The position numbers and the translations under genes were made by a program. Shown in pieces: positions 41,808 to 56,841 of a DNA stretch of 57,594 nucleotides. The first letter of the stretch is position 1. Every line of letters begins with the position of its first letter. Under the pieces are notes generated by a model. The model searched no databases, was not told where the DNA came from, and saw nothing but the letters and a program-made list of their open reading frames with translations. Source of the stretch: an uncultured Prolixibacteraceae bacterium (GTDB taxonomy: Bacteria; Bacteroidota; Bacteroidia; Bacteroidales; FEN-979); contig CAYHCQ010000004.1 in the NCBI GenBank assembly GCA_964355115.1, positions 1 to 57,594 on the forward strand, in the 5' to 3' direction.

Positions 41808-43148
41808 ATGAAGATACTTCTGATAAATCCTCCCCGGTCGCCGGAAAACAACATACTTAAATTTGCCCCAGAAGATGCCAAACCCTTTATCCATAAGAAA
41901 CTTATCGGTCCGCCACTCGGTTTGCTTACTATTGCTGCCGCGGTAAAGGATCATGAAGTGGTGGTTTTCGACACCAAGGGGGAGTACGACCTCGAGCCAG
42001 CTACACCGCCATTGGCAGAGCTTGTGAGGCTGTTGTTATCCAGACACCAACCCGATGTGGTAGGCGTTACCACGATAACCTCGGAGTTTGACTTTTCGGT
42101 TGAGATCCTCCAGGTAGTTAAACAGACTGACCCGGGTATACTTACCGTTGCGGGCGGACTTCACGCAACCCTTTGTCCGAAGGATTTTACCGATATTTCG
42201 ATCGACATAGTGATCCCCGGACAGTGCCCTCATATTTTCCGCGATGTTATAAATGCCCGGGAGAGAGGGTTGCCCTACAATGCGATTCCCGGGCTTTACC
42301 TGAATGGACCCGGCGGGTTGAAAAAGACAACCGGCGCACCCCGTCACTGGGATTTCACCGATGCCGATTACCTTATGCCCGACCGCAGCCACCTCGCCCG
42401 CTGGATCGACACTTACAAAGTTGGCAACAGTCCTTACCCCAGTACTTATATATATACTTCACTGGGTTGTCCTTACAAATGTACTTTTTGTTCGATCTGG
42501 AGTCAGTTTAAAGGGAAATATTACCAGCGCACAATCGAAAGCCTGATCACGGAACTTAAATCCGTTGATGAATACCCAGTGGTACGCTTCGCCGATGCCA
42601 ACACAGTAGTTGATGAGCAGTTCATGCTCGGACTTTTCCGCCGGATTGAAGAGGAGGGTATCCGCAAGACCTTCATTATGGACATCCGGGCTGATATTGC
42701 TGCAAGCCGGCCGGATATTATTGAAAGACTGGCCAGAGGCGGGTTGAAGGTAGTCATCTGTGGTTTTGAATCCTTCAGGGATGAAGAGCTGAAGCGGTAC
42801 AATAAGGAATCCCCCGCTGCCGATAACCAGACGGCAGTTCAGGTATTTGAGGCGAACGGGATCATGGTGCGTGGCAATTATGTGATCCCGAACGACTATA
42901 CGGATGCAGATTTCAGGGCATTGGCCGAATATTCCGACAGAAACCGGGTGGTATATGCCGGTTATACTGTTTTAACCCCTATGCCGGGAACTGTGTTTCA
43001 TAAGCAGGTAAGAGCTGATATAGTGGACTTTAACTACAGGAAATACAATTTCTTTAACTCTGTAATGAAAACCACGCTTCCTCACGATGAGTTTCATACA
43101 AGGGTAGGGGAGCTCTGGCTGATAAAGAAGGGGAAGGACGTTATTTAA
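41808..43148 (+). CDS. Cobalamin-binding-domain radical SAM protein
   Basis: 446 aa. Motifs: MKILLINPP..., PDVVGVTTITSEF, and 4Fe-4S motif LGCPYKCTFC. Confidence 0.85.
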   Translation: MKILLINPPRSPENNILKFAPEDAKPFIHKKLIGPPLGLLTIAAAVKDHEVVVFDTKGEYDLEPATPPLAELVRLLLSRHQPDVVGVTTITSEFDFSVEILQVVKQTDPGILTVAGGLHATLCPKDFTDISIDIVIPGQCPHIFRDVINARERGLPYNAIPGLYLNGPGGLKKTTGAPRHWDFTDADYLMPDRSHLARWIDTYKVGNSPYPSTYIYTSLGCPYKCTFCSIWSQFKGKYYQRTIESLITELKSVDEYPVVRFADANTVVDEQFMLGLFRRIEEEGIRKTFIMDIRADIAASRPDIIERLARGGLKVVICGFESFRDEELKRYNKESPAADNQTAVQVFEANGIMVRGNYVIPNDYTDADFRALAEYSDRNRVVYAGYTVLTPMPGTVFHKQVRADIVDFNYRKYNFFNSVMKTTLPHDEFHTRVGELWLIKKGKDVI

Positions 43149-43183
43149 TTGATAAATGATAATTGACAATTGACAATGGATAA
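43149..43183. repeat. Tandem heptad repeat (5 units, TTGAYAA type) filling the rSAM-rSAM junction
   Basis: Reads TTGATAA ATGATAA TTGACAA TTGACAA TGGATAA. It starts immediately after the TAA stop (43146-43148) and contains the next ATG (43176). Confidence 0.85.
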
Positions 43184-44618
43184 TAGCCGGTTGAGGAGGG
43201 TGCTTCTGGTGAATACCAATGTGGAGAGGGTGCCGTATCCTGTTCCACCGCTGGGGCTTTGTATGTTGGCTGAAAGCCTGAAGGGGCTGTATGATGTAAG
43301 AATTTACGACGGTGTTTTCGATGAAGGGTGCAACCTGTTATCAGCCGTTGAATCGTTTAATCCGGACTTTATCGGCTTCAGCATCCGCAACATCGATGAT
43401 GTGGTTGCTGACCGTGAAATTTATTATATCGACGGAATCCTAAAACAGTTCATCCGGCCGGTAAAAAGCATCGCCCGGGTGCCTGTTATCCTTGGCGGAA
43501 GCGGTTTCAGCGTATTTCCCGAAGAGTTGATGGAACTAACGGGTGCCGATTACGGCATCGTTGGAGAGGGTGAATACGTTTTTCCATTACTGCTCGAATA
43601 TATCATTGCAGGTAAATCTGTTGCTGATCTCCCCAATGTGATTACCTCATCTGCCCTGGTTGTTCAGAAAGGCGAGCGTTCTTTGACCAGAACAATGGCC
43701 GGATCGGGTTTTTCGGAGATTGACAGAAAGATAGATTTCAATCCCTACCTGGCCAAAGGGGTATATTCCATTCAGACAAAGCGGGGTTGTTCGCATGGTT
43801 GTATCTACTGTACATATCCGGTTATTGAAGGACGGAAATTCCGCACTCGGCAGGCTTCGGAAATCGCTGATGAAATTGAGCAGGTTAATGGGCGGCTCGG
43901 TTACATTACCTTTGAATTTGTCGATTCCACTTTCAACGATCCGCGGGGGCATGCCGAGGCAATATGCAGGGAGATCATCAGCCGGAAATTGAAGGTACGG
44001 CTCCGCACCATGGGAATGAATCCACGTCATTGCAGCGAAGAGCTTTTCGACCTGATGATCAGGGCGGGATTTGTACAGATTGACGCAACACCCGATACCG
44101 CATCTCCGCGGATGTTAAGGAGCCTTGACAAGGGATTCCGGCTTGAAGAGATCCGGACGATGGCCACTTTGATCAGGAAGTTCAACCTTCCCACGATGTG
44201 GTTTTTTCTTTTCGGCGGACCGGGTGAAAATCCTTCCACCTTTAGAGAAACCGTTGATTTCATCCGTGCCTGTGTTAACCCGGAGGATCTTGTATACATG
44301 GCTAGCGGTTTACGGATTTATCCGCAAACGCCGTTATATCGTACAGCCTTGATTGAGGGCATGGTCAGTCCAGGCGAATCCATCCTCTATCCACCAGTAT
44401 ATTATTATTCGAAAGAGATGGGGAAAGAGGACCTGGATGCGTCAATTCAGGAGACCGCCCGTTTGTTGCACAACTGTATTCCGGCCCTTGAAACCTCACC
44501 ATCTCCTGAAATGATAAAGGAAGCCGCCGCCCTAAGGCAGGCAGAAAACCTGACGGAACCGATGTTCAGGACCCTGCTCAGAATCCGTAAAAGATGGCGG
44601 GATGCCGGGTTGGTTTAA
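43176..44618 (+). CDS. Cobalamin-binding-domain radical SAM protein
   Basis: Start set to the ATG at 43176 (MDNSRLRRVLLVNTN...); the track uses a TTG at 43170. Motifs: PDFIGFSIRNID, and 4Fe-4S motif RGCSHGCIYC. Confidence 0.85.
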   Translation: MDNSRLRRVLLVNTNVERVPYPVPPLGLCMLAESLKGLYDVRIYDGVFDEGCNLLSAVESFNPDFIGFSIRNIDDVVADREIYYIDGILKQFIRPVKSIARVPVILGGSGFSVFPEELMELTGADYGIVGEGEYVFPLLLEYIIAGKSVADLPNVITSSALVVQKGERSLTRTMAGSGFSEIDRKIDFNPYLAKGVYSIQTKRGCSHGCIYCTYPVIEGRKFRTRQASEIADEIEQVNGRLGYITFEFVDSTFNDPRGHAEAICREIISRKLKVRLRTMGMNPRHCSEELFDLMIRAGFVQIDATPDTASPRMLRSLDKGFRLEEIRTMATLIRKFNLPTMWFFLFGGPGENPSTFRETVDFIRACVNPEDLVYMASGLRIYPQTPLYRTALIEGMVSPGESILYPPVYYYSKEMGKEDLDASIQETARLLHNCIPALETSPSPEMIKEAAALRQAENLTEPMFRTLLRIRKRWRDAGLV

Positions 44619-45520
44619 ACAATTTTGGAATCGAGCGCCAGGAACCTGAATTTTCCTTCAACGAACCTGGCATTTTTTACCAGTCCTTTTGACGGGCCAC
44701 ATTCAATAAAGGTTTCAATCCCTTTTTCAAGCATGCAAGTCAGCGTTTTGAACCAATTGAGGGGGTGATACAGGTTATTTGTTAGTTCCTGCCTTATCTC
44801 ATGGGCATTACCAAGTTCCTGAGCATTGATAAGTGAAAGAAGAGGGCATGAAGGTGGGGAAAATGATATCCGGCTTACAGATTTTTCAAATTCAAGCGCT
44901 GCATCGCGCAGAAAAGCTGCATGGTAAGGGGTATTGACATTCAGTTGCCGGGTATGCAATGCGCCTTCCTCCCTGGCTGCTTCAAGTGCCCGCAAAACCT
45001 GGGTATAATCGCCGGAAATCACAAATGCAAACGGACTGTTTTGGTTGGTTATCTCGAGTTCATCGCCTGATTGTGCCACAATTCTGTCAATGTCTTGCCT
45101 GTTGAGCCCGATCAGCGTGCCCATGCTGTAACTTCTGCCGCGGGTCACATTTACTATGGCTTCATAGGCACTTCTTATGAGCCTGAGTCCGCTTGCAAAG
45201 TCAATCACGCCGGCATCGCAGAGGGCAGCATAAACCCCCATGCTGTAACCCGCTGTACAGACAGGTTTTATTCCAGACTCCCGCAGGGTTTGTGATGCTG
45301 CACAACTGTATATGTAGGTAATAAACTGGGTTAGGAGTTCACTATCAAGAAAATTACATTTCTCAAAACTGAAACCAGCCAATGCCGGTTCCGGCCCCGT
45401 TGAAGCGGTGAGAAGCAACTTGTTAAAATGCTCTGTAAACCCTGCTATCCGAGTGCCGGGATGATCGGTATAATCGTTGGCAAAAGCCGGGAAGATAAAT
45501 GCTAAACTGCTATCAGGCAA
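44615..45520 (-). CDS. ACP S-malonyltransferase-like acyltransferase (FabD family, divergent)
   Basis: 301 aa. LAFIFPAF (compare FabD FVFPGQG) and nucleophile elbow AGYSMGVYAAL (FabD has GHSLGEY). Apparent TTG start. It overlaps the convergent rSAM gene by 4 nt. Confidence 0.7.
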   Translation of the reverse strand: MPDSSLAFIFPAFANDYTDHPGTRIAGFTEHFNKLLLTASTGPEPALAGFSFEKCNFLDSELLTQFITYIYSCAASQTLRESGIKPVCTAGYSMGVYAALCDAGVIDFASGLRLIRSAYEAIVNVTRGRSYSMGTLIGLNRQDIDRIVAQSGDELEITNQNSPFAFVISGDYTQVLRALEAAREEGALHTRQLNVNTPYHAAFLRDAALEFEKSVSRISFSPPSCPLLSLINAQELGNAHEIRQELTNNLYHPLNWFKTLTCMLEKGIETFIECGPSKGLVKNARFVEGKFRFLALDSKIV

Positions 45521-45534
45521 GGGAGTAAAATGAT

Positions 45535-45843
45535 TTATTTTTCAAGTTCCAGCAGCCGGTTTTCGTGTTCAATGATCAGCAACTGCATATCAATCAGTTC
45601 TCCGATTGTGGCTACAGGATTTTTAACTGCATATTTGCCGATTACCTTCAGCTCAATATTCAGGTTGTATTTTTTCTTGAATATCTCAATCAGTTCCAGG
45701 AACATCAGCGAATCCCCGTCGAGGTCTTTGATGATGTTTGTATTATCGTTTATCTGTGATGTATCGACTTCACACTCCTCAGCAAAAAAACTGTATACCG
45801 TCTCCCTGACCTCGTTCTTTGTATTTTCGGTGATTTTGGCCAT
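45535..45843 (-). CDS. Acyl carrier protein
   Basis: 102 aa. Motif DLDGDSLMFLELIE. Confidence 0.85.
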   Translation of the reverse strand: MAKITENTKNEVRETVYSFFAEECEVDTSQINDNTNIIKDLDGDSLMFLELIEIFKKKYNLNIELKVIGKYAVKNPVATIGELIDMQLLIIEHENRLLELEK

Positions 45844-45875
45844 CTTGTATTGAATTTCTGCAAAAATAATATTTT

Positions 45876-47102
45876 TTAGAGAAAATCAGGCCGGATTTTT
45901 TTGAATACCAGGGTTGCGTTATGACCACCAAATCCGAATGAGTTTGAAAGCGCTACCCCGATCTGGCTTTCCCTTGCAATATTAGCGATATAATCAAGAT
46001 CCAGGTCCGGATCCGGGGTATCATAGTTTATTGTAGGCGGTAAAACACCCTTTTCCAGGCTGAGCACAGTAATGATGCCCTCGATGGCCCCGGCAGCGCC
46101 AATGGTATGCCCAAGCATCGATTTGGAGGAAGAGACCGGAATTCCGTATGCCAGATCCCCGAATACGCGTTTAATCGCCATTGTTTCATAGCGGTCATTC
46201 AATTCCGTAGATGTTCCGTGAGCATTGATATAACCAACCTCTTCCTTTTTTACACCGGAATTAAACAGCGCTTTTTCTATTGTCCGGGCCATGCCAGCCC
46301 CGTCCTGCATCGGGGCCATGATGTTGTAACCTTCACTGGTAAGCGCATACCCGGCCACCTCTGCATGTATGCCGGCCGTTCGGGCAAGTGCATGGTCGAG
46401 CGATTCAAGAATCAACACCCCGGCACCTTCGCCGATCACAAATCCGTCGCGGTCTTTCGAGAATGGTTTGCTTGCCTTCCCGGGGGGATCGTTGGCAACA
46501 GAGAGTGCATAAAGCGCATTGAATCCCCTGATCTCTTCCGGGTTAATAATCGAGTCGGCACCTCCAACGATCACGATATCAGACTGATTGTTCCTGATCA
46601 TGTCGGCGCCCATTGCAATTGCATAAGCAGATGAAGCACAGGCAGTGTTGATCGCAAAGTTGGGTCCAAGCAGCTGGTATTCGAGAGATATCCATGCAGG
46701 CATGGAGTTGGTCATCGATTTAAAGACCGTATTTTGAGGTGTGGTATCCTGCTCAACACTTGAATTCCCTGTATTCACAACACCAAGGATCACGCTGCAA
46801 CGTGTTTTGTCGCACGTTTCAAAGTCGATACCGGCATCGGCTACAGCCATTTTGGCTGCAGCTATACACATCCGGGTGACCCGTGTCATCTGCCCCGCAG
46901 CCCGTTTCTTAACAAAGGTCCGGGCAAATTCATCAAATTCCGGAGAAACTTCAGCAGCTATCTGTGTCTGATTTTCTGAAGGGTCGAACCGTGTTATCCT
47001 TTTGACACCGCTCTTGCCGGCGATCAGATTTTTCCAGTTTGTTTCCAAATCCAGGCCCAGGGAGGTGACCATGCCCATCCCGGTAACAACAACTCTCCTC
47101 AT
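45876..47102 (-). CDS. Beta-ketoacyl-ACP synthase (FabF/FabB-like, Cys-His-His)
   Basis: Start set at MRRVVVTGMGMVT. Active-site motifs NTACASS, NAHGTSTELND and LGHTIGAAG. Confidence 0.9.
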   Translation of the reverse strand: MRRVVVTGMGMVTSLGLDLETNWKNLIAGKSGVKRITRFDPSENQTQIAAEVSPEFDEFARTFVKKRAAGQMTRVTRMCIAAAKMAVADAGIDFETCDKTRCSVILGVVNTGNSSVEQDTTPQNTVFKSMTNSMPAWISLEYQLLGPNFAINTACASSAYAIAMGADMIRNNQSDIVIVGGADSIINPEEIRGFNALYALSVANDPPGKASKPFSKDRDGFVIGEGAGVLILESLDHALARTAGIHAEVAGYALTSEGYNIMAPMQDGAGMARTIEKALFNSGVKKEEVGYINAHGTSTELNDRYETMAIKRVFGDLAYGIPVSSSKSMLGHTIGAAGAIEGIITVLSLEKGVLPPTINYDTPDPDLDLDYIANIARESQIGVALSNSFGFGGHNATLVFKKIRPDFL

Positions 47103-47113
47103 TGGAAATTTTC

Positions 47114-47506
47114 CTATTTGTTCAGATTTGCCGACCACCTGCAGATCATATCAACTTCGGCCTTGGTGGGTATGGCATCAGGATTCTTTTTGCGCCAGCT
47201 CTTGGTGGGCATGGCTCCCTTGGTAAGTTCTTTGCACATATCCTTTGCTTTATCAGCTTGCTTTTCGGCCGAATATTCATTCCATTTCGAAAAATTCAGC
47301 TTCATCCGGGCCATCGAACTGCCATCATCGGCATGACAGTCCATGCATGCACGCTGAACCAGCTTCAGCACACTGTCGGGAAGGGCGGTTCCGGGAGCGA
47401 TGGCAGATTTTTCATCCGATCCTCTTGCTTGCCGGGGTGTGAATAGCATAGAGCAGGCAGCGACCGTAAAAATAACAACTGCAGCGATTGTGACTATTTT
47501 TTTCAT
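47114..47506 (-). CDS. Secreted/anchored haem-binding domain protein (CXXCH)
   Basis: Start set at MKKIVTIAAVVIFTVAACS. It has a single c-type haem motif ACMDCHADDGS, about 130 aa, resembling the Haem_bd family. Confidence 0.6.
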   Translation of the reverse strand: MKKIVTIAAVVIFTVAACSMLFTPRQARGSDEKSAIAPGTALPDSVLKLVQRACMDCHADDGSSMARMKLNFSKWNEYSAEKQADKAKDMCKELTKGAMPTKSWRKKNPDAIPTKAEVDMICRWSANLNK

Positions 47507-47557
47507 GATTGTCGTATGTTTATACAAAAATAGTAAAAATAAACTTCAATACCTGAA

Positions 47558-50134
47558 TTAATCAAAGGGTCCTTTTTCGAGTCCGAAATACTCCTTTATT
47601 GCATCATTCATCTCGCCAACAGGCAGGTGGGCGAGTGCGGTATATCGTTTTGATGCATTCAGGTAGGTGAACCTCAGGTGTTCAGCAATTTCGTCAGAAT
47701 TTTCGGGAAGTCTTACCTCTTCATTTTCCAGCGGATAATCGTAGAAGCCAGAATTTGTCTTCATTCCGAGCCTCCCGACTGCGCAAAGCGATTCCAGTTT
47801 CCCGATAAATGGGGTAAAGTATTCGCGATGGGGATAATCTGCTGTATAATTCTCTACGGCAGCCAGCATAGTATCATTCCCTACACTGTCGCAGAAATCA
47901 AATACTCCGAACGGAAAGATCCGCTCCTTTACAACCTGGTCCATCTGTGCAAAGGTGCACCTCCCTTCGGCAACGATTCGGTATGCTTCGTTCTGAAAAT
48001 CAAGGAATAACCGATTCAAAACAAAGCTGTTTGGCTCGTCGAACTCAAGGTACTTTCTTTGAATGGATTCAAGAAACTGGCGGACAAACACTTTGGTAGT
48101 ATCAGACGTGGAGGATGTAGTTGTAAATTCCACGATGTTTTTCAATTGTACCGGGTAGAAAAAGTGCAACCCGACAAATTTTTCACGACGGGCCGAGGCA
48201 GGGGAGAGGAGAGAGGGATGAATGGAGGAGGAGTTTGATGCGAAGATGCAATCTCCGTGAACAAGTGTGTCAAGCTCCGAAAAGAGTTTCTTCTTCAGTT
48301 CAGGGCTTTCCGGGATTGCTTCTATAACCAGGTTGCAATCTGCAAGCGATTCAGGATCAGATGATATTACAGTCTGCCCGAGGATGTCAAACGCCTCTCT
48401 TTCGATAATGCCTGCATCCAAGGAGCGGTTGATCTTTCTTTTGACCTGCTTCATCATTTTATCCGGGTCAGCAGCCGGACTCACCAGCCAAACCAGTTTA
48501 AAACCGAAACCCACAAGGTAGTAGAAGATGCTTGTGCCCATCTTGCCTTCGCCGATGATGCCAATGGTAAGGATGCAGGATGCAGGATGCAGGATGCTAA
48601 CTGATAATTTTTTCCAGGGACCTTTATCCTGGCCCATAACCAGTTTCCGGTATTCATCCATATTCTTTTGGTGCTCTCTGATATGCCGGTTGTAGCCAAG
48701 CATGGAGAGCATGAACCCGAGCCCTTTGTCGATGGCGATCTGTTTTGTGCGGATGAGCCGCATGATGAATGAGAATAATTTTTTCCTCTCCGGATCGCGG
48801 GTAAGCACAAACTCTTTAAAGGTGATCCATGATAGCCGTGCTTTCATCAAGGGAGAGATATCTCCTCCGGGACGGGTGAATGCCCCGTTGATGAAGAGGG
48901 CCTCTGCTTTTTTCCGGATCGTGTCGAAGGAGTATAGCCTGGCGATCGTCTCCATGTAACCGTCGAACAGGTCGATCTGCGACATGTTCATGTAGTGAAC
49001 TGTAGGGAAGTGGCCAACACCCAGTTCCGGATCACAATAGGTAAGCCGGCCCTCGTCCCTGAATTTCCTGTGGACCTCTGTTCCCGGCGGGGCATTCAGC
49101 AGGTGAAGATTTACATGCGGAAGGTTATATTTCAGGGTGAAGTCAAAGATCCGGTCAAACTCCTCGAGGGTGTCGTTATCGAATCCGACGACAAAACTTG
49201 CGTTGATATGAATTCCGGCAGCATGGATTTTACGGATTGCCTCCTCATAGATTGATCCGCCCCGGTTATGATGTTTCTGCGATTCGTCAAGGCTCGCAGG
49301 GTTCAGCGATTCAAATCCGACAAGGATGTTGAAGCAGCCTGCATCGGCCATCAGTTTAAGCAGTTCATCGTCGGTGGCAACATCCAGACTGCACATGCAT
49401 CCCCAGGAGATTTTGAGGGGAATGATCGCCCGCATCAGCTCTTTAGCGTACTTTTTATTAATGGTAAGGTTATCGTCGACAAAAAAGAAATATTTCGAGG
49501 GTGCGGCTTTTATCTCTTCAACAACATTTACAATCTCGCGGTAACGCATCTTGCGGCCGAAATTCTTCGAAACCAGGCAGAAATCGCAGTTGAACGGACA
49601 CCCCCGGGAAACCTGGATGGCAACCTGGAAGATTCGTTTCATGTTTACCAGGTCCCAGCGCGGTGGCTTCTGCGTTTTGTATTCCACGTAACCTTCCGAT
49701 TCATAAACCGGTTTCATGCAGCCATTTTCAAAATCTGCCAGACACTTTTCCCATTTGCCTTCCGCTTCGCCCGCAACCACAGAATCTCCGTGCTTCAGCG
49801 CCTCCTCCTGCTGGAACGTCGCATAAGGTCCGCCGAAAACAACTTTCACCCCCATAGCACGATACCGGTCACCAAGTGCAAACGCACGTTTGGCAGTAGC
49901 AGCCAGCGTAGTGATACCAACAATATCGGGACGGATATTCCGCGGAATCTCTTCGATCTCCTCATCGTAAATACGGATGTCGTAGTGGTCCGGCGTCAGC
50001 GCTGCAATGGTAGGCAGAGCCAGTGGCACCATCAGCCTGCGCTTTCCGAACATCTTCGCCATCTCGCTGTGAGCAGGATAGTTAACAAATTTTTGCCGCG
50101 GCGAAAGCAGAAATAATATGTATCTATTTTTCAC
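47558..50134 (-). CDS. Fusion protein: cobalamin-binding-domain radical SAM (N-terminal) + 3-hydroxyacyl-CoA dehydrogenase (C-terminal)
   Basis: 858 aa with a GTG start. The rSAM part has PDIVGITTLAATA and SRGCPFNCDFC. The HADH part has IGIIGEGKMG, VIEAIPESPELKKKLF, ASNSSSI, GLHFFYPV and SFVLNRL. The junction lies at about 48571-48598. Confidence 0.85.
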   Translation of the reverse strand: MKNRYILFLLSPRQKFVNYPAHSEMAKMFGKRRLMVPLALPTIAALTPDHYDIRIYDEEIEEIPRNIRPDIVGITTLAATAKRAFALGDRYRAMGVKVVFGGPYATFQQEEALKHGDSVVAGEAEGKWEKCLADFENGCMKPVYESEGYVEYKTQKPPRWDLVNMKRIFQVAIQVSRGCPFNCDFCLVSKNFGRKMRYREIVNVVEEIKAAPSKYFFFVDDNLTINKKYAKELMRAIIPLKISWGCMCSLDVATDDELLKLMADAGCFNILVGFESLNPASLDESQKHHNRGGSIYEEAIRKIHAAGIHINASFVVGFDNDTLEEFDRIFDFTLKYNLPHVNLHLLNAPPGTEVHRKFRDEGRLTYCDPELGVGHFPTVHYMNMSQIDLFDGYMETIARLYSFDTIRKKAEALFINGAFTRPGGDISPLMKARLSWITFKEFVLTRDPERKKLFSFIMRLIRTKQIAIDKGLGFMLSMLGYNRHIREHQKNMDEYRKLVMGQDKGPWKKLSVSILHPASCILTIGIIGEGKMGTSIFYYLVGFGFKLVWLVSPAADPDKMMKQVKRKINRSLDAGIIEREAFDILGQTVISSDPESLADCNLVIEAIPESPELKKKLFSELDTLVHGDCIFASNSSSIHPSLLSPASARREKFVGLHFFYPVQLKNIVEFTTTSSTSDTTKVFVRQFLESIQRKYLEFDEPNSFVLNRLFLDFQNEAYRIVAEGRCTFAQMDQVVKERIFPFGVFDFCDSVGNDTMLAAVENYTADYPHREYFTPFIGKLESLCAVGRLGMKTNSGFYDYPLENEEVRLPENSDEIAEHLRFTYLNASKRYTALAHLPVGEMNDAIKEYFGLEKGPFD
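48571..48598. repeat. In-frame tandem heptad repeat (GGATGCA x3 + GGATGCT) at the rSAM/HADH domain junction
   Basis: Read directly: ggatgca ggatgca ggatgca ggatgct. On the coding strand it translates as SILHPASCIL, immediately before the HADH Rossmann motif TIGIIGEGKMG. Confidence 0.9.
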
Positions 50135-50172
50135 TTTTCACTCTTAACTCTTAACTCTTCACTTTTCACTCA
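50131..50172. repeat. Tandem heptad repeat (6 units, T[CA]ACT[CT]T type) spanning the KASIII / rSAM-HADH junction
   Basis: Reads tcacttt tcactct taactct taactct tcacttt tcactca. It covers the GTG start (50132-50134), the 24-nt spacer and the TGA stop (50159-50161). Confidence 0.85.
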
Positions 50173-51268
50173 GCACATATCCGGCTTGCATGAATTTACT
50201 TACCTCCGTTACAAAACTGAGTACAATATCACCGGGCTGAAGTACCTCTTCATGCATGATTTTATCGAGGCAGAGCAGGGCCATAGGCGGACCGATATAG
50301 CCCATCGTTGCCATCTTTGAATAAAGCGTTTCGCGCGGGATGCCAAGTTCGGTGCACTCGTCCATCACCAGTTCTGAAATATGCTTCGATGGAAAATTGA
50401 CCTGGAAATACCTGAGTTTGCTGAAATCCACGGGATGAAGTGCAACCATCCGCTTCAAACCATTAAGGAAGACAGAGCCATCGGGTTCATGAAAGTTGGC
50501 TCTCAGTTCCTCCTGGAACATCTGGGCCAGGTGATGATAACCCTTTTCAAACTCCTCCTTCGGGTTCATCCAGTAGGCCGGGCGTTTGTTGCCCATGGCA
50601 GAGGGCTTGTTGCCCCCGGTGGATTCGATGTAGGCATAATCTACGAACAGCCCTTTTCCCTCATCTCCGGCTGCCTGCAGAACCAGGGCGGCCGCTCCAT
50701 CGCTGAGGAAATAGCGGAGAAAAAGTTCTTCCTTAGTCACCAGCGCCTGGTTGTAGTATTCGGCAACCAATTCGGAGGATGACATGCTTGAGGAGATCAC
50801 AAGGGCTTTTTTATACCGCCCGGAACGGATCATGTCCGAGGCGATCATAAGCGCTTTATAAGCCGATGTGCAGTTGGCATGCACCGAAATTTCGGCACAG
50901 CGTTCGATTCCCAACCCTTCCTGGATGCGGACTGAGGCGGTAGGCATCTGGTCCTGGTGGGCGCTGCCGTAAACGATCAGGTCGATCTCCGACGGCTTCA
51001 TCCCTGCATCAGCAAGTGCAACCTGAGCGGCCTTCACCGACATTGTTACATTGTCCTCAGTAAATTGTCGTGTAACCGGATCCAGGGCAAAATGGTAGAA
51101 CTCCACTTCAAGGAGTTCGGCCATAAGAATTTTTATCCTTTTCAGCCATTTTTGGATCTTATCAGGGGCGTTCGTTAACTCCCCGAGGTAGTAATCCACA
51201 TCTGCTGCCGGGATGGCTTTGCCGGGTAAAAACGATCCGCTTCCTGCAATTTTCACACTGGCCATCAT
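50159..51268 (-). CDS. KASIII (FabH)-like thiolase-fold enzyme, atypical
   Basis: 369 aa. FabH-like N-terminus (VKIAGSGSFLPGK) and Cys context SVHANCTSAYKAL. The region aligning to FabH GNTSAAS reads GYIGPPM (eye alignment only). Confidence 0.7.
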   Translation of the reverse strand: MMASVKIAGSGSFLPGKAIPAADVDYYLGELTNAPDKIQKWLKRIKILMAELLEVEFYHFALDPVTRQFTEDNVTMSVKAAQVALADAGMKPSEIDLIVYGSAHQDQMPTASVRIQEGLGIERCAEISVHANCTSAYKALMIASDMIRSGRYKKALVISSSMSSSELVAEYYNQALVTKEELFLRYFLSDGAAALVLQAAGDEGKGLFVDYAYIESTGGNKPSAMGNKRPAYWMNPKEEFEKGYHHLAQMFQEELRANFHEPDGSVFLNGLKRMVALHPVDFSKLRYFQVNFPSKHISELVMDECTELGIPRETLYSKMATMGYIGPPMALLCLDKIMHEEVLQPGDIVLSFVTEVSKFMQAGYVLSEK

Positions 51269-51951
51269 GCAAAATATTTTTTAATGTACAAGGCTGTTTT
51301 CTCCTTGTGAAAATCGGCAATAACCGACTTTGCAAATTTGATGGCAGATTTCACGACTTCCCTTTTGGGCAATATCTTCTGAACAAATTTCATTTCAAGC
51401 GCTTCAGCCGCCGAAAATGTATTTGCCTTCAGCACCAGTTCAAGTGCGCGGCTGCGGCCGATAAGGGCCGACATTTTTACTATCCCTCCAAGGCCCGGCA
51501 CCAGGTTAAAAGAGGTTTCCGGAAGGCCGAAAACGGCATCTTCGCCACAAAACCTGAAATGGCTGAAGAGGGTAAGTTCCAGTGCCGATCCAAGGCATAC
51601 ACCCCGGATGGCTGAGATTACCGGTATTTCAAACCGGTCCAGTTTCAGGAAGGTCTCATAATTTGCAGTGAGAACAGCTGGCACCCCGGTAACTACTCCA
51701 TTGGCCACCACAGAACCCGACCTGATCTCCTCCAGAAGTGCCGGAAGTCCGGCTCCGGATGAAAAATGGCGGCCGTGTCCGCTGATAACAAGAGCCATGA
51801 ATGCAGGGTTGTTCCCGATCAATTCCACAGCCTCCCTAAACTCCCTGAAGAATTCCAGGGTCATGCTGTTCGACGGCGGCTGATTAAGCACCAGCTGGCC
51901 GATACCATCAGATAAGCTCAGATCGAAGGTCGTAAAGCCGGGGAGGGTCAT
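51265..51951 (-). CDS. Enoyl-CoA hydratase/isomerase (crotonase) family protein
   Basis: 228 aa. Crotonase oxyanion-type segments GHGRHFSSGAG and AIRGVCLGSALEL. It has 4-nt overlaps on both sides. Confidence 0.8.
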   Translation of the reverse strand: MTLPGFTTFDLSLSDGIGQLVLNQPPSNSMTLEFFREFREAVELIGNNPAFMALVISGHGRHFSSGAGLPALLEEIRSGSVVANGVVTGVPAVLTANYETFLKLDRFEIPVISAIRGVCLGSALELTLFSHFRFCGEDAVFGLPETSFNLVPGLGGIVKMSALIGRSRALELVLKANTFSAAEALEMKFVQKILPKREVVKSAIKFAKSVIADFHKEKTALYIKKYFA

Positions 51952-52694
51952 AGGCCTTTGTTGCGTTGTGATTCTGCCAGAGCAAGTTCGCAGAAGAGTC
52001 TAGTCTCCTCCTTCATTGCCTCTTCGGCCGGTAGTGTCCGGGCATTGCGCAGCGCCTTCATCACGGCATGTATTACAGGCAGAGGACGGTCCAGGGTCAT
52101 TTTCTGCAACAGCGAAAAGGAAAAGTCGAATAGTTTTGCCCTGGGCACGATATAATCTACAAGTTTCATCTCCAGCGCATCCTCTGCATTTATCATATCG
52201 CCGGCCATGATCATCTTTAGCGAATTCTGAAATCCGGCAAGTTCGGTAGCCCTCACAGTACCGCCCAGACCGGGAAGGATGCCATGGTTGATCTCAGGAA
52301 AGGCAAAGAGCGAATTTTCGGTACAGACCCTGATGTGAGAGGCAAGAGCGATCTCTAGTCCACCGCCGAAACAGATGCCCTGGATCGCGGAAACTACAGG
52401 TATATTAAGGTTCTCCAGGTGGCTTAATACAGCTTTTCCACCTTCCATTTTCGCTGCAAGATCCTCCTTCTCCCTGATCATTTTAAAGAGATTTTCCAGC
52501 TTTCCCCCACCCGAAAAATGCTTTCCGGCGCCACAAATCAATATTCCCTTCAGGTAGTCGTAGGAGGTCCACTTCCGGATCACTTCCAGCGGAAGGAACT
52601 CAGGATTTTCCAGATAATTCTCCGGCGGGTTGTCGAGAGTAATGATCCCGATGTCCTTGCGAATTTCCCAGCTTATCTTATCACTTTTTTCCAT
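51948..52694 (-). CDS. Enoyl-CoA hydratase/isomerase (crotonase) family protein
   Basis: 248 aa. Motifs GAGKHFSGGG, AIQGICFGGGLEIAL and FPEINHGILPGLGGT. Confidence 0.85.
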   Translation of the reverse strand: MEKSDKISWEIRKDIGIITLDNPPENYLENPEFLPLEVIRKWTSYDYLKGILICGAGKHFSGGGKLENLFKMIREKEDLAAKMEGGKAVLSHLENLNIPVVSAIQGICFGGGLEIALASHIRVCTENSLFAFPEINHGILPGLGGTVRATELAGFQNSLKMIMAGDMINAEDALEMKLVDYIVPRAKLFDFSFSLLQKMTLDRPLPVIHAVMKALRNARTLPAEEAMKEETRLFCELALAESQRNKGL

Positions 52695-52722
52695 AAATCT
52701 GCTTCCTACTTAATATTGCCTG

Positions 52723-53106
52723 TCAGTTGAGGATATTCATCTCGGCAGGGACATCACACGGCATCCGTGAGGTGTCTACGAACACTGTTTTAACTGTTGC
52801 CCTTGCTGCCGGCAAACCGGTTGTTTTGTTGAACAGCTTCTGTTCAAAAACCAGGTACGGGGCCGACCGTTTTGTCCGGGTAACCACCTCGATCTCGTCG
52901 AACAGCCTTATTTCGCGCTGGTAGCGTATATGAACATCCACCACAACGAGAAACAGACCGTTTTGGGTAAAAAACTCAAGCAGTCCGGCATCCCTGAACA
53001 ACTCCCAGCGTGCCTGTTCAATGTAGTTCAGGTAGACCGCGTTGTTGACGTGTCCGTATGAGTCGAGCTCATTCCCGCGGGCCGTTATTTTACTCCGATG
53101 AATCAT
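52723..53106 (-). CDS. Hotdog-fold acyl-CoA/ACP thioesterase (4HBT/YbgC-like)
   Basis: Start set at MIHRSKITARGNELDSYGHVNNAVYLNYIEQARW, which overlaps the upstream stop as ATGA. Confidence 0.8.
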   Translation of the reverse strand: MIHRSKITARGNELDSYGHVNNAVYLNYIEQARWELFRDAGLLEFFTQNGLFLVVVDVHIRYQREIRLFDEIEVVTRTKRSAPYLVFEQKLFNKTTGLPAARATVKTVFVDTSRMPCDVPAEMNILN

Positions 53107-53498: not shown

Positions 53499-53569
53499 GA
53501 TTAAATTTTCACCTGTCAGATTAACCGTCAAAAATACAAAATGTAAAGGAATACCGGGTTGCCTAATTG

Positions 53570-54824: not shown

Positions 54825-55632
54825 ACGCCGGCAAATTTACCAGTTTTTCCAATGGTACAACCTCCAGTCCCTGCTGACGGATGCTGATGAGCACCCGGTC
54901 GAGAATTTCCGCCGTCACCCGCTGCGTATCGTGCATCAGGATGATATCACCGGACTTAAGTTTGTCGGTGATGCGAAGGTATAGCCGCTCCGGATCGCTG
55001 ATGGCTGTATCAAGCGACCATCGGCTCCAGGCGATGACCGCGTAACCTGTTCTCCGCAATCCGCCACTCACCATGGGGTTGATAACGCCATACGGCGGAC
55101 GGAAGAATTTAACATTTTTCCCGGTAACCGACCGGATCAATGATTCGGTTTTCAGCAGGTCGCGGTGAATCAGGAATGGCGGCCAGAAATCCCACAGTTT
55201 AGTATGGGAATAGGAATGGTTGCCCAGGATATGTCCTTCGGCATTGATTCTCTTTATCAGCTCTTCATTTCCGGGTATTTTACGGCCGATCAGGAAGAAT
55301 GTGGCAGGAACGCCGTGTTTTCTGAGCACTTCGAGGATCGCCGGGGTAGTGTCAGGGTCGGGACCATCGTCGAAAGTGATGGAAATATTTTTGTCATCCC
55401 TGCTGCCCCGGCATATCACAGGATGGTGAAACTGCGAACAGGGCATGAACGAGAGAATTACCGGAACGATGAGGTAGGTCAATACCAGCGGGATATAAAA
55501 CCATGCCTGATATTTAAAGAAAAAGCCGGTTATCCCACCTTCACAGGGGCAGATTAGAAATCTTACCAGGTTGAACGTAAGTAAAATCAGGAAAAAGAGG
55601 AGGGTGGCCGTCCTGAAATTTACTCTTTTCAT
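54817..55632 (-). CDS. Polysaccharide deacetylase (NodB homology domain) with N-terminal TM segments
   Basis: 271 aa. NodB motifs ISITFDDGPDPD, GNHSYSH, FFRPPYG and ILMHD. Confidence 0.85.
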   Translation of the reverse strand: MKRVNFRTATLLFFLILLTFNLVRFLICPCEGGITGFFFKYQAWFYIPLVLTYLIVPVILSFMPCSQFHHPVICRGSRDDKNISITFDDGPDPDTTPAILEVLRKHGVPATFFLIGRKIPGNEELIKRINAEGHILGNHSYSHTKLWDFWPPFLIHRDLLKTESLIRSVTGKNVKFFRPPYGVINPMVSGGLRRTGYAVIAWSRWSLDTAISDPERLYLRITDKLKSGDIILMHDTQRVTAEILDRVLISIRQQGLEVVPLEKLVNLPAYE

Positions 55633-56726
55633 ACAGTGCCTGTGAGTGTAAAGGTATGTTCCAGGTTGCGGTAATGGTTCCAGATCAGGATATTTTTTAA
55701 AGGTCTGATGAATGATCCGCGGTAACGAGCCATTTCAGGAACCAGGGCATGGCGGAAGATCATGGAGGCCAGCCAGAGTGCAAAAATACCGGATGTGTGG
55801 AATTCACCGGAAAGATGCTTGAAGGCTGCGATATCTGAACCCTGAGGCAGGGTATCCATTGCTTCATGGTAAATTATATCACCTGATGGATCGCCGTTCA
55901 CTCCGAGGATGAAAAGATCGATATCGTTTACCGACAGACAATTGGCTTCAAGAAAACAGGTGATCTTGTGTAGGATCTCTTCCTTCCCGTTCGGTTTGTA
56001 TAGGGTGGTTACATCCCTGAGTGAGGCGATGGAGTGATCTGTTTTGCTTTCGGACAGCAGGAAAAATCCGGCACCTTCGCCGGCAATACTACCTCTGGTC
56101 GTATCTGCGTAAAGATCAGTAATCCCTGATGGATTCTTTTTCCAGTGGCCCAGACGCTGGGTAATGCGGAAAGCATTCGCAGTGAGTTCGTCCATTCCGC
56201 CAGCCAGAACGGTCCTTGCTTCGCCCGAACGGAGCCGGATCAATGAATCGATGAGGGCAGTCTCAAATGAAAATCCACGGTGACAATAGGTAAAGTTATA
56301 TGCGTGGCATTTGAGCAGCAGGGCAATCTGGCCGCTCACCGTGTTGTGTGTCGACTGGATAAACGAGGTAGGGGTGAGGAGTTCTTCGTTGTTTCGGATG
56401 AGCGTGGCCAGGAATTTCTCGGTATCCTCGAGGCAGCTCATCCCGGTGCCAGTTATGATTGCATCCGGCAATTCATACCCTGCATCCAGCATCCTGCAAC
56501 CTGCATCTTCAAGACAGATCTTCGCCGCCGAAATCCCCATCTTGATGATACGGCTCATCCGGCGAACCATGTCGCCTGCCACATAATCCTTATAATTGGG
56601 CTCCTGGATCTTGAAAAACTCGGGACCGGGAGGTACGATCTCATCCGGAAAACGTGAACTGTCGAGCGTTTTCTGCGCCGAAACCAGGCCGAGACCGTTG
56701 ATATATGCAGGTTTTTGTGAAATCAA
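55629..56726 (-). CDS. Beta-ketoacyl synthase-like protein lacking the active-site Cys context (chain-length-factor-like partner)
   Basis: 365 aa, thiolase-fold-like (INGLGLVSAQ..., ...ITGTGMSCLED...). There are no TACSSS, HGTGT or GHT motifs. The start is TTG, with an in-frame TAA 3 codons upstream. Confidence 0.65.
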   Translation of the reverse strand: MISQKPAYINGLGLVSAQKTLDSSRFPDEIVPPGPEFFKIQEPNYKDYVAGDMVRRMSRIIKMGISAAKICLEDAGCRMLDAGYELPDAIITGTGMSCLEDTEKFLATLIRNNEELLTPTSFIQSTHNTVSGQIALLLKCHAYNFTYCHRGFSFETALIDSLIRLRSGEARTVLAGGMDELTANAFRITQRLGHWKKNPSGITDLYADTTRGSIAGEGAGFFLLSESKTDHSIASLRDVTTLYKPNGKEEILHKITCFLEANCLSVNDIDLFILGVNGDPSGDIIYHEAMDTLPQGSDIAAFKHLSGEFHTSGIFALWLASMIFRHALVPEMARYRGSFIRPLKNILIWNHYRNLEHTFTLTGTV

Positions 56727-56743
56727 GACTATTTACGATTGAG

Positions 56744-56841
56744 TTGATAATTGATAATTGATAATTGACAATTGATAATGGACAATTGACAGTTGATAAT
56801 TAATTAACTCTTGACTCTTGACTCTTCACTTTTAACTCTTC
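56744..56841. repeat. 98-nt tract with strict 7-nt periodicity (9 TTGAYAA-type units then 5 ACTYTTN units) in the KS / CLF-like junction
   Basis: Reads ttgataa x3, ttgacaa, ttgataa, tggacaa, ttgacag, ttgataa, ttaatta, actcttg x2, actcttc, actttta, actcttc. The last units overlap the KS stop codon (56832-56834). Confidence 0.9.

What the first reader, a model, noticed from the sequence alone, without database searches (positions are those of the whole stretch)
48571..48598. Heptanucleotide tandem repeat sits in frame exactly at the fusion junction: possible read-through spacer or slipped-strand switch
GGATGCA GGATGCA GGATGCA GGATGCT (28 nt) encodes SILHPASCIL, directly before the HADH Rossmann motif. 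Three other gene junctions in this cluster are filled by non-coding heptad arrays, so this looks like a former intergenic spacer now translated. Because 7 is not a multiple of 3, gain or loss of one unit would shift the frame and uncouple or abolish the downstream HADH domain. That is the classic geometry of a contingency (phase-variable) repeat. It is equally the kind of place where an assembler could collapse a repeat and create a false fusion.
Basis: seen in the sequence. Interest (0 to 1): 0.7.

Follow-up and report, generated by a model that had tools for sequence, protein, structure and literature searches.

The report
Heptad repeat translated as fusion linker
A perfect four-copy, 7-base repeat in a Bacteroidales lipid-synthesis gene cluster is real and is translated as the floppy tether that joins a radical-SAM enzyme to a dehydrogenase; it descends from a repeat-encoded tail that this dehydrogenase carries in many relatives, and nothing found here shows that it acts as an on/off switch.

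Summary
It is a perfect 4 x 7-nt array at 48570-48597, with sense unit GCATCCT on the minus strand. It lies in frame inside an 858-aa ORF (47558-50134, minus) and encodes SILHPASCIL between a B12-binding radical-SAM domain and a 3-hydroxyacyl-CoA dehydrogenase (HADH) domain.

The fusion is not an assembly artefact. Three assemblies from at least two samples carry the identical junction.

The closest relatives keep two separate genes. One (L002) has a non-coding 8-mer array at the same site. In an unbootstrapped NJ tree, fused forms sit in at least five separate places among about 50 Bacteroidales relatives.

The array is not best read as a captured non-coding spacer. It matches, in register ([H/N]-P-x-S-x-I-x-x before IGIIGEG), a repeat-encoded N-terminal tail found on many stand-alone HADHs. 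That tail has a clear 7-residue periodicity and cannot contain a stop codon in any frame.

AlphaFold gives two confident domains joined by a low-confidence linker (residues 508-518).

A gain or loss of one unit would truncate the protein. No copy-number variant was found. The tract has only 4 units, and homologous tails are invariant within clusters at 90% identity or more. Phase variation is therefore possible but unsupported.

Verdict: a new member of a known kind, of moderate interest.

The parts
48570..48597 (-). Perfect heptanucleotide array, 4 x GCATCCT on the sense strand, translated as (S)ILHPASCIL.
   Evidence: TRF gives period 7, 4.0 copies and 100% matches. Sequence read. Zero matches expected by chance.
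47558..50134 (-). Fused ORF of 858 aa: B12-binding radical-SAM domain plus 3-hydroxyacyl-CoA dehydrogenase domain. The probable start is GTG at 50134.
   Evidence: ORF list and translation. Pfam domains. The N-terminus VKNRYILFLLSPRQKF... is homologous to the N-termini of relatives. The same ORF is present in L001 and L004.
48608..50134 (-). Radical-SAM part (residues 1-509, ending ...GPWKK). Stand-alone relatives end at or a few residues after GPWKK.
   Evidence: P0015 ends ...GPWKK*, P0122 ends ...GPWKKLSI*, P0016 ends ...GPWKKKVTG*.
48569..48607 (-). Linker, residues 510-522 (LSVSILHPASCIL). Residues 513-522 are encoded by the array.
   Evidence: AlphaFold2 pLDDT is below 50 for residues 508-518, and beta-strand 1 of the Rossmann fold starts at 523. 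The PDB alignment to 3-hydroxybutyryl-CoA dehydrogenase 9fbd starts at T523, which matches chain residue 5.
47558..48568 (-). HADH part (residues 523-858 plus stop). There is no canonical in-frame start codon between the rSAM end and the Rossmann motif.
   Evidence: Pfam 3HCDH_N and 3HCDH. The motifs that hold the catalytic residues of the human enzyme (recalled from memory) are conserved against 9fbd: NSSS, GLHFF, VEF and LNRL. Start-codon scan.
50130..50171 (-). Stop-rich heptad array (AGTGAAA/AGAGTTA, 6 units) between the KASIII-like gene and the fused gene. It contains the upstream stop (TGA, 50161-50159) and the GTG start (50134).
   Evidence: TRF. Sequence. ORF coordinates.
43146..43184 (+). 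Heptad array (TAATTGA, 5.6 units) filling the junction between two B12-rSAM genes.
   Evidence: TRF. Sequence. Pfam of the flanking genes.
56744..56840 (-). Two adjacent heptad arrays (TTATCAA type, 8.3 units; AAGAGTC type, 4.9 units) between the KS gene and the KS-like gene.
   Evidence: TRF. Sequence.
56479..56507 (-). Imperfect heptad array (sense GATGCAG GTTGCAG GATGCTG GATGCAG) inside the KS-like gene. It corresponds to a 7-aa (21-nt) insertion in a variable loop. The unit is the reverse complement of the junction unit.
   Evidence: TRF. Pattern search. Alignment to homologues shows a 7-residue gap in most of them.

Best explanation
The 28-nt tract is a short heptanucleotide simple-sequence repeat that is translated as most of a 13-residue flexible linker in a genuine gene fusion.

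In the ancestral arrangement, a B12-binding radical-SAM gene and a 3-hydroxyacyl-CoA dehydrogenase gene were adjacent and tightly coupled. Both belong to a type-II fatty-acid/polyketide-like (aryl-polyene/flexirubin-like) lipid cluster of uncultured Bacteroidales.

In many members of the family the HADH gene begins with a tail encoded by ATCCNNN/CATCCNN heptads. This unit cannot form a stop codon in any sense frame. Three units encode seven residues, for example IRNPESG or ILHPASC.

In the window's lineage three things were lost: the rSAM stop codon, the spacer and the HADH start codon. The rSAM frame now runs straight through this tail into the Rossmann fold.

The units are now perfect copies, which points to recent slippage or homogenisation (inferred). 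Because 7 = 1 mod 3 and the unit is stop-free, a change of one or two units could have brought the two frames into register (inferred).

Today the tract most likely behaves as an ordinary linker. It remains a potential indel hotspot, but there is no evidence that it is used as a switch.
For: SHOWN: THE ARRAY AND THE FUSION.
- The array is perfect and in frame.
- Both domains are intact (Pfam). The motifs that hold the catalytic residues of known HADHs are conserved in the PDB alignment, which starts at T523.
- AF2 gives mean pLDDT 86.6. The only low-confidence segments are 179-191 and 508-518, and the latter is the linker. pTM is 0.59, consistent with tethered domains.
- The junction is identical in L001 (ENA ERZ4201063; 99.90% identical to the window, 5 mismatches in 5143 nt) and in L004 (Logan assembly of SRR24858484; 100% identical).

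SHOWN: RELATIVES.
- In L003 the two genes are separate and overlap by 13 nt (ccATGGAAAAAGTAA).
- In L002 the rSAM ends KKLSI-TGA. An 8-mer array (GATTTGAA...) follows, then a separate HADH.
- Of 53 distinct junction sequences, 9 are fused and 44 are split.
- Fused forms fall in at least 5 separate places on an NJ tree of the rSAM domain. The window is sister to the split L002 and L003.

SHOWN: THE HEPTAD-ENCODED TAIL.
- CATCCNN arrays lie directly 5' of IGIIGEG in L026 (GGCATCC x4.7, translated MHPASGIRHPASDIQT), L029, L039, L005, L008, L024 and L031.
- The register H/N-P-x-S-x-I-x-x is shared by the window, L026, L029, P0144, L005 and L024.
- Tail lengths of 120 stand-alone HADHs peak at 6-7 residues (38 proteins), 13 (28) and 20 (8). 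Only 1 falls in 14-19.
- Residue identity at lag 7 is 15%, against 4-8% at other lags. The observed count is 80 against 35.6 +/- 5.4 in shuffles, reached by 0 of 2000 shuffles.
- The stop-free property follows from the unit's codons: CAT CCN NCA TCC NNC ATC CNN. Variants with 0-8 units never terminate inside the array.

KNOWN PRECEDENT. Heptamer direct repeats just upstream of start codons occur in Beggiatoaceae, Cyanobacteria and some Bacteroidetes. Their stop-free orientation occurs inside ORFs at the periphery of proteins (PMC4679880).
Against: - The closest relative (L002) has, at this site, a non-coding 8-mer array and only a degenerate tail (MSRPFSSGIGA). The exact path from split to fused cannot be reconstructed, so capture of spacer DNA is not excluded.
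- The register argument rests on short peptides. The DNA of P0144, the best match (RILHPAS), was not available.
- Sequences in the tail survey are not phylogenetically independent. The NJ tree has no support values.
- There is no protein-level evidence that the 858-aa product is made.
- Stability evidence is thin: three consensus assemblies of essentially one population (99.9-100% identity) and no read-level data.
Confidence: 0.7

Rival explanations
1. Contingency (phase-variable) locus. Slipped-strand gain or loss of a heptad toggles the population between three states: fused (4 units), uncoupled (5 units, with the HADH re-initiated from the ATG at -96) and HADH-null (3 units). This would change the lipid product.
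For: - The geometry is right. The tract is perfect, 7 is not a multiple of 3, and the tract lies inside an ORF.
- A 5-unit allele opens the HADH frame 282 nt upstream with an ATG at -96. A 3-unit allele leaves no start.
- Arrays at this junction differ strongly between species, for example L017 against L101 at about 89.5% identity.
- Perfect arrays with different variable bases (window GCATCCT, L026 GCATCCG, L008 GCATCCA) imply ongoing unit turnover.
- The cluster probably makes an envelope lipid. It encodes LolA-like, MMPL and GT2 proteins.
Against: - All three assemblies have 4 units.
- Predicted proteins for the 1-, 2-, 3-, 5-, 6- and 7-unit alleles are absent from about 15 billion proteins.
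- The junction pattern is absent from JGI metagenomes.
- Four units is far below documented phase-variable heptanucleotide tracts, which have 13-38 copies at H. influenzae hmw (PMC2651432).
- Repeat-encoded HADH tails are identical in all members of clusters at 90% identity or more, while downstream residues vary.
- An 8 x 8-mer junction array shows no indel between L098 and L099 at 92.5% identity.
- The 7-residue quantisation of tails indicates that only frame-keeping changes persist.
Confidence: 0.1
2. Captured intergenic spacer. A non-coding heptad array that once separated the two genes lost its flanking stop and start codons and became coding.
For: - L002 has a non-coding array exactly at this position after KKLS.
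- Many relatives have long non-coding arrays here: L017, L019, L029, L039, L041, L098 and L101.
- In L005 the fused linker contains sequence (CCCCTCCCC...GGGGAG, then heptads) that looks like former spacer or tail DNA.
Against: - The non-coding arrays at this junction are stop-rich (TGA, TAA or TAG in the unit). They lie upstream of the HADH start.
- CATCCNN arrays lie downstream of the start and are translated in split relatives.
- The window peptide matches that translated tail in register.
Confidence: 0.12
3. Assembly or sequencing artefact. A longer or different tract was collapsed, producing a false in-frame fusion.
For: Repeats can be collapsed by assemblers. L001 has low coverage (3.4x, from the contig name).
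Against: - The 28-nt tract is identical in three assemblies made with different pipelines: the NCBI MAG, a Logan assembly and an ENA SPAdes-style contig.
- 28 nt is shorter than k = 31, so no k-mer lies wholly inside the array (inference; Logan's k value is from my own knowledge).
- Much longer arrays (100-130 nt) are assembled intact in related MAGs.
- The fused architecture exists independently in other lineages with non-repeat linkers.
Confidence: 0.03
4. The ORF is continuous, but the HADH is made separately by internal initiation within or near the array. The array would then act as an unstructured translation leader.
For: - Bacteroidota generally do not rely on Shine-Dalgarno sequences (own knowledge).
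- The region is unstructured as RNA (z = +0.57).
Against: - There is no ATG, GTG or TTG in frame between the rSAM end and the Rossmann motif.
- The first ATG is inside GEGKMG, and starting there would delete beta-strand 1 and the glycine motif.
Confidence: 0.05

Closest known systems
Heptamer direct repeats (TAACTGA type) of Beggiatoaceae, Cyanobacteria and some Bacteroidetes (MacGregor 2015, PMC4679880). More generally, 'long simple sequence repeats' in which 7-nt units predominate (Mrazek 2007, as cited there) and cyanobacterial STRR repeats (own knowledge).
   Same: - Tandem 7-nt units occur as several arrays per locus, mostly at gene junctions right next to start codons.
- The stop-containing orientation is confined to intergenic DNA.
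- The stop-free orientation is tolerated inside ORFs at domain peripheries or variable loops.
- Related genomes differ by 7-nt increments or lack the arrays altogether.
   Different: - The unit is different (GCATCCT, not TAACTGA). The single adjacent TAACTGA at 48598-48604 is at chance level.
- Many different units coexist in one cluster.
- Here the coding array is a family-wide N-terminal tail and serves as an inter-domain linker of a fusion. That paper did not describe this.
Gene fusion and fission caused by microsatellite indels in the Mycobacterium tuberculosis complex (Sreenu et al. 2006, PMC1501019).
   Same: Simple-sequence repeats at ORF boundaries convert two adjacent ORFs into one, or the reverse, through frame shifts. 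Tracts with few units can be polymorphic between genomes.
   Different: Those cases are mostly mono- to hexanucleotide tracts compared between near-identical genomes. Here no polymorphic pair differing only in unit number was found, so the role of slippage in making the fusion is inferred.
Phase-variable heptanucleotide tracts of Haemophilus influenzae hmw1A/hmw2A (Dawid 1999 and Power 2009, PMC2651432).
   Same: A 7-nt unit, and in one strain a tract inside the ORF where unit changes shift the frame.
   Different: Those tracts have 13-38 copies and show documented inter-strain variation. This tract has 4 copies and no observed variation. Those genes encode surface adhesins of a pathogen; this one encodes a biosynthetic enzyme.
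Rosetta-stone fusions of adjacent operon genes, for example multifunctional FadB-type proteins that contain an HADH domain.
   Same: Neighbouring, functionally linked genes are merged into one polypeptide with a short flexible linker. Fused and split forms coexist among relatives.
   Different: The partner is a B12-binding radical-SAM domain. At the 50%-identity level none of the best 150 representatives spans both domains, so this fusion is a minority, recurrent state within one family.

Membership tests
Simple-sequence contingency locus (phase-variable SSR) | Uninterrupted tandem repeat located in an ORF or promoter | tested here: met
   4.0 perfect copies inside the ORF.
Simple-sequence contingency locus (phase-variable SSR) | Unit length is not a multiple of 3, so unit gain or loss switches the reading frame | tested here: met
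   Alleles with 3 and 5 units give 548- and 547-aa truncated products. Alleles with 1, 4 and 7 units stay fused.
Simple-sequence contingency locus (phase-variable SSR) | Different unit numbers among close strains or assemblies | tested here: not met
   The window, L001 and L004 all have 4 units. Variant proteins are not in the collection. No other matching contig was found. The sample is very small: one population at 99.9-100% identity.
Simple-sequence contingency locus (phase-variable SSR) | Length heterogeneity among reads of one population | not testable with these tools
   No read data are available. Candidate runs are SRR24858484 and the reads behind ERZ4201063.
Simple-sequence contingency locus (phase-variable SSR) | Tract length in the range known to be hypermutable | tested here: not met
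   4 units, against 13-38 units in documented heptanucleotide examples (PMC2651432).
Heptanucleotide tandem arrays (LSSR / STRR / TAACTGA-like) | Tandem direct repeats with 7-nt units, several per locus, mainly at gene junctions next to start codons | tested here: met
   The window has six arrays between 43 and 57 kb, and three junctions are filled by them. Homologous junctions in many related MAGs also carry arrays.
Heptanucleotide tandem arrays (LSSR / STRR / TAACTGA-like) | Only the stop-free orientation occurs within ORFs, at the periphery of domains | tested here: met
   CATCCNN has no possible stop codon in any sense frame. It lies between domains, outside the fold. The array in the KS-like gene lies in a variable loop.
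Heptanucleotide tandem arrays (LSSR / STRR / TAACTGA-like) | The specific TAACTGA unit repeated in tandem | tested here: not met
   The window has only 3 single copies of TAACTGA, against 6.05 expected by chance. The copy adjacent to the array is not repeated.
Gene fusion of adjacent operon genes | The two parts are separate adjacent genes in relatives | tested here: met
   L002, L003 and 42 other distinct junctions are split.
Gene fusion of adjacent operon genes | One uninterrupted ORF, reproduced in independent assemblies | tested here: met
Gene fusion of adjacent operon genes | Both domains intact | tested here: met
   Pfam. Motifs that hold the catalytic residues are conserved in the PDB alignment. 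AF2 gives high pLDDT in both domains.
Gene fusion of adjacent operon genes | A single polypeptide is actually produced | not testable with these tools
   Needs proteomics or expression experiments.

The most novel reading that the evidence does not exclude
Stop-free heptad arrays (CATCCNN) at the 5' end of the HADH gene act as 'frame adaptors'.

Each unit shifts the frame by +1 and no frame contains a stop. Any upstream ORF that loses its stop codon could therefore be brought into register by a slip of one or two units.

This would make the junction a hotspot for reversible fusion and fission. In living populations the tract might still toggle between three states: fused (4 units), uncoupled (5 units) and HADH-null (3 units). 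That would tune the product of an envelope-lipid cluster.

Together with the stop-rich arrays that supply stop and start codons at other junctions, this would amount to repeat-based, evolvable punctuation of an operon.
Probability: 0.1. Interest if true: 0.65.

Novelty: new member of a known kind. Interest (0 to 1): 0.35.

Why it matters
The case shows concretely how a short non-triplet repeat can end up as protein sequence. The unit cannot encode a stop codon, it sits at a domain boundary, and it now serves as the tether of a bifunctional enzyme.

Comparison with relatives suggests that this radical-SAM/dehydrogenase junction has been fused several times. It also shows that 7-8-nt arrays punctuate many gene junctions of one lipid cluster across dozens of uncultured Bacteroidales.

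This is useful for annotation. Public gene calls start the fused gene 24 conserved residues too late, and tails such as HPASGIR are repeat-encoded rather than conserved motifs.

It is also useful for thinking about how gene fusions arise. It does not, on present evidence, reveal a new regulatory mechanism.

Tried and rejected
- **Unit-number variants as proteins.** I looked up predicted proteins for alleles with 1, 2, 3, 5, 6 and 7 units, plus a stand-alone HADH from the 5-unit allele. None is in the collection.
- **Junction DNA in metagenomes.** An exact junction pattern in JGI metagenome contigs gave no match. A protein-based scan of the same collection found no relative closer than L002.
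- **TAACTGA link.** A TAACTGA lies directly next to the array on the plus strand (48598-48604). This suggested a link to the Beggiatoa/cyanobacterial repeat family. It is a single copy, and the window holds 3 copies against 6 expected by chance, so I rejected it.
- **RNA element.** Folding 121 nt around the junction gives z = +0.57. Rfam finds nothing in the whole window.
- **P0273.** This 332-aa HADH sits in a cluster of 352-aa proteins and looked like a possible frameshift variant at a tail array. Its contigs have the same junction as L104, so the difference is only a GTG versus ATG gene call.
- **P0144.** Its peptide is the best match to the window tail (RILHPAS). No DNA was available, so its heptads could not be read.
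- **Representative search at 50% identity.** I ran it to count fused architectures. None of the best 150 hits spans both domains. This shows only that the fusion is a minority state.
Full report
**1. The observation**

Tandem Repeats Finder reports a period-7 array at 48570-48597 with 4.0 copies and 100% identity. A 20-nt core of the array is expected 0.00 times in dinucleotide-preserving shuffles.

The gene is on the minus strand. ORF 47558..50134 (858 aa) reads ...QDKGPWKK LSV SILHPASCIL TIGIIGEGKMG.... Pfam finds B12-binding plus Radical_SAM at residues 49-332, and 3HCDH_N/3HCDH at residues 523-800. The repeat is therefore in frame, on the sense strand as GCATCCT x4, immediately before the Rossmann motif.

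- 43146-43184 (TAATTGA);
- 50130-50171 (sense AGTGAAA/AGAGTTA);
- 56744-56840 (two arrays).

An imperfect array of the reverse-complement unit lies inside the KS-like gene at 56479-56507.

**2. Context**

The surrounding genes on the minus strand encode:
- KS and a KS-like (chain-length-factor-like) protein;
- a polysaccharide deacetylase and a LolA-like protein;
- a FabA/ApeI-like dehydratase and a 4HBT thioesterase;
- two enoyl-CoA hydratases and a KASIII-like enzyme;
- the rSAM-HADH fusion and a Haem_bd protein;
- KS, ACP and an acyltransferase.

Two further B12-rSAM genes lie on the plus strand. Beyond them are a GT2-DUF2062 gene and a 1299-aa MMPL/acyltransferase/methyltransferase ORF. 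This is a type-II FAS/PKS-like, aryl-polyene/flexirubin-like lipid cluster. That assignment is an inference from domain content, and the product is unknown. Homologous loci come from uncultured Bacteroidales/Prolixibacteraceae MAGs, mostly from lakes, sediments and peat.

**3. Is the fusion real?**

The identical 48-nt junction (AAAAAATTATCAGTTAGCATCCTGCATCCTGCATCCTGCATCCTTACC) is present in two further assemblies:
- L001, an ENA assembly (ERZ4201063), is 99.90% identical to the window over 5143 nt, with 5 mismatches.
- L004, a Logan assembly of SRR24858484, is 100% identical over 8333 nt.

The tract (28 nt) is shorter than typical assembly k-mers, so it cannot form a de Bruijn loop (inference). 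Arrays of 100-130 nt are assembled intact in related MAGs.

Full-length fused homologues with unrelated, non-repetitive linkers exist in other lineages (P0002-P0014, 62-73% identity).

The HADH part aligns with solved 3-hydroxybutyryl-CoA dehydrogenases from T523 onward (9fbd, E = 3e-37). The motifs NSSS, GLHFF, VEF and LNRL are conserved against 9fbd. From memory, these motifs hold the Ser, His, Glu and Asn catalytic residues of the human enzyme.

AlphaFold2 on a 62-sequence alignment gives mean pLDDT 86.6. Only two segments fall below 50, residues 179-191 and 508-518, and the second is the linker. The first Rossmann strand is at 523-527. pTM is 0.59, consistent with two tethered domains.

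There is no ATG, GTG or TTG in frame between the rSAM end and the Rossmann motif. The HADH therefore depends on the fusion for its translation.

**4. What relatives have at this junction**

The closest rSAM relatives are not fused.
- L002 (rSAM about 91-93% identical) ends ...GPWKKLSI-TGA. A roughly 45-nt 8-mer array follows (GATTTGAA GATTTGAA GATGTGGA GATGTGAA AATATGAA), then a separate HADH (MSRPFSSGIGA-IGVIGEG).
- L003 (about 87-88% identical) has the two genes overlapping by 13 nt, with no array.

Across 53 distinct junction sequences from GTDB genomes and JGI metagenomes, 9 are fused and 44 are split. The distance from the rSAM stop to the HADH start ranges from -80 to +337 nt.

On a neighbour-joining tree of the rSAM domain, fused forms occupy at least five separate positions (no support values):
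- the window clade;
- L006;
- L005;
- L009 + L010;
- L011.

At the 50%-identity level, none of the best 150 representatives spans both domains. Fusion is thus a recurrent, minority, derived state.

**5. Two kinds of array**

Many split junctions contain long arrays just after the rSAM stop. Examples are L017 (8-mers, GTGAACA and AATC), L019 (8-mers plus TTCGTTA x17), L029, L039, L041, L098/L099 and L101. Their units contain stop codons.

A second kind lies directly 5' of the IGIIGEG codons. These are heptads of the form CATCCNN:
- L026: GGCATCC x4.7, perfect;
- L029: GGCATCC/GGCGTCC;
- L039: GGAATCC x3;
- L005: AACATCC AGCATCC GGCATCC ATCATCC GTAATCC;
- also L008, L024 and L031.

In split genes the HADH start codon lies upstream of these heptads, so they are translated. 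Examples are MHPASGIRHPASDIQT-...RHPASGIRN- and MTNDENIHPVSSGIRNPESGIRI-. The unit's codons in the three frames are CAT, CCN, NCA, TCC, NNC, ATC and CNN. None can be a stop.

The window peptide (S-I-L-H-P-A-S-C-I-L-T) has the same register as these tails: H or N at position -8 from the first residue of (I/V)GIIGEG, then P-x-S-x-I-x-x. It closely resembles P0144 (MSQIPNPESRILHPASRIRK-), a stand-alone HADH.

**6. Repeat-encoded tails are a family feature**

Among 120 stand-alone HADH homologues, the length of the tail before the glycine motif peaks at 6-7 residues (38 proteins), 13 (28) and 20 (8). Only one protein falls between 14 and 19.

Residue identity at lag 7 is 15%, against 4-8% at other lags. 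The observed count is 80 matches against 35.6 +/- 5.4 in within-tail shuffles, reached by 0 of 2000 shuffles. Seven residues correspond to three heptads. This is the signature expected if unit number changes over evolutionary time but only frame-keeping changes survive.

The sequences are not phylogenetically independent, so the statistic is descriptive.

**7. Is it a switch?**

- Alleles with 1, 4 and 7 units are fused.
- A 3-unit allele gives a 548-aa rSAM with a 30-residue out-of-frame tail and no start for the HADH.
- A 5-unit allele gives a 547-aa rSAM and opens the HADH frame 282 nt upstream, with an ATG at -96.

No variation was found:
- Three assemblies have 4 units.
- None of seven predicted variant proteins is in a collection of about 15 billion proteins.
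- No other contig with this junction exists in the JGI collection.

Other points also argue against a switch:
- In relatives, repeat-encoded tails are identical in all members of clusters at 90% identity or more, while nearby residues vary.
- An 8 x 8-mer junction array shows no indel between L098 and L099 at 92.5% nucleotide identity.
- Documented phase-variable heptanucleotide tracts have 13-38 copies (PMC2651432).

On the other side, arrays are remodelled between L017 and L101 at about 89.5% identity. Perfect arrays with different variable bases in different lineages imply continuing slippage. I put active phase variation at about 0.1.

**8. Mechanism proposed**

Shown:
- The tract is a translated, low-confidence (flexible) linker in a real fusion.
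- The ancestral state is two coupled genes.
- A stop-free heptad-encoded tail is common on this HADH.

Inferred:
- The window lineage lost the rSAM stop, the spacer and the HADH start. The rSAM (...KKLS) now reads into the tail.
- The units were recently homogenised or expanded by slippage.
- A change of unit number may have set the frame, because each unit shifts it by +1 and no frame has a stop.

**9. Comparison with known systems**

The closest descriptions are the following.
- Heptamer direct repeats next to start codons in Beggiatoaceae, Cyanobacteria and a few Bacteroidetes. Their stop-free orientation is tolerated inside ORFs at the periphery of proteins. The same paper cites the general finding that 7-nt units dominate long simple-sequence repeats in bacteria (PMC4679880).
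- Microsatellite-indel gene fusion and fission in the M. tuberculosis complex (PMC1501019).

The present case differs in three ways: the unit, the taxon, and the fact that the coding array is a family-wide tail now used as an inter-domain linker. I file it as a new member of a known kind.

**10. Limits**

- The evidence comes from consensus assemblies only. The three window-type assemblies are essentially one population.
- The NJ tree has no bootstrap support.
- No DNA was available for the best peptide match (P0144).
- There is no expression or protein data.
- The product and the role of the rSAM-HADH pair are unknown.

Noticed in passing
window 50130-50171 (minus strand): The AGTGAAA/AGAGTTA array holds both the stop codon of the KASIII-like gene (TGA, 50161-50159) and the only plausible start of the fused gene (GTG, 50134). 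Public gene calls (P0001 and P0121, 834 aa) start at the ATG 24 codons downstream. This cuts off an N-terminus (KNRYILFLLSPRQKFVNYPAHSE) that is conserved in relatives.
   Followed up: partly
window 56479-56507 (KS-like gene 55629..56726, minus strand): An imperfect heptad array (GATGCAG GTTGCAG GATGCTG GATGCAG) encodes DAGCRMLDAG. It corresponds to a 7-residue (21-nt) insertion in a loop where most homologues have a gap and others carry different insertions. L009 and L011 have arrays at the same site. Its unit is the reverse complement of the junction unit, so the two tracts, 7.9 kb apart on the same presumptive transcript, are complementary. The significance is unknown.
   Followed up: partly
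window 43146-57594, and loci L005, L008, L011, L017-L020, L026-L031, L039, L040 and L043: 7-8-nt tandem arrays fill homologous gene junctions of this lipid cluster in many Bacteroidales MAGs, especially the KASIII-to-rSAM, rSAM-to-HADH and rSAM-to-rSAM junctions. The unit differs in almost every genome, and some relatives have none (L003, L006, L010, L012-L016, L021, L023). In the window, six arrays lie between 43 and 57 kb. Nothing comparable lies in 1-43 kb. Whether the arrays are specific to this cluster or occur genome-wide could not be tested.
   Followed up: partly
L005 9527-9639; L031 10512-10629: The 37-residue fused linker of L005 begins with a C-rich/G-rich inverted repeat (CCCCTCCCC...GGAAGGGGAG, translated PSPNPSPERKG). 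A near-identical element in L031 forms the C-terminal extension of a stand-alone rSAM, just before its stop codon. This appears to be another case of junction DNA absorbed into coding sequence.
   Followed up: no
window 36587-40486 (minus strand): A 1299-aa ORF combines MMPL transporter, acyltransferase and methyltransferase domains. It is another multi-domain fusion in the same cluster.
   Followed up: no
window 41808-57569: The cluster combines aryl-polyene/flexirubin-like genes (KS, KS-like, ACP, ApeI-like dehydratase, 4HBT thioesterase, LolA-like, GT2-DUF2062) with three B12-binding radical-SAM proteins, two enoyl-CoA hydratases, a KASIII-like enzyme and a Haem_bd protein. Synteny is conserved in many uncultured Bacteroidales. 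The product is unknown. No Rfam family, including the cobalamin riboswitch, was found in the window.
   Followed up: partly
L001 versus window 47567-47883: All five differences between the ENA contig and the window lie within 320 nt at the 3' end of the HADH domain. Four of them change residues: V to G, N to K, L to V and D to E. The contig has low coverage (3.4x), so the differences could be errors, or a small recombination patch or strain difference.
   Followed up: no
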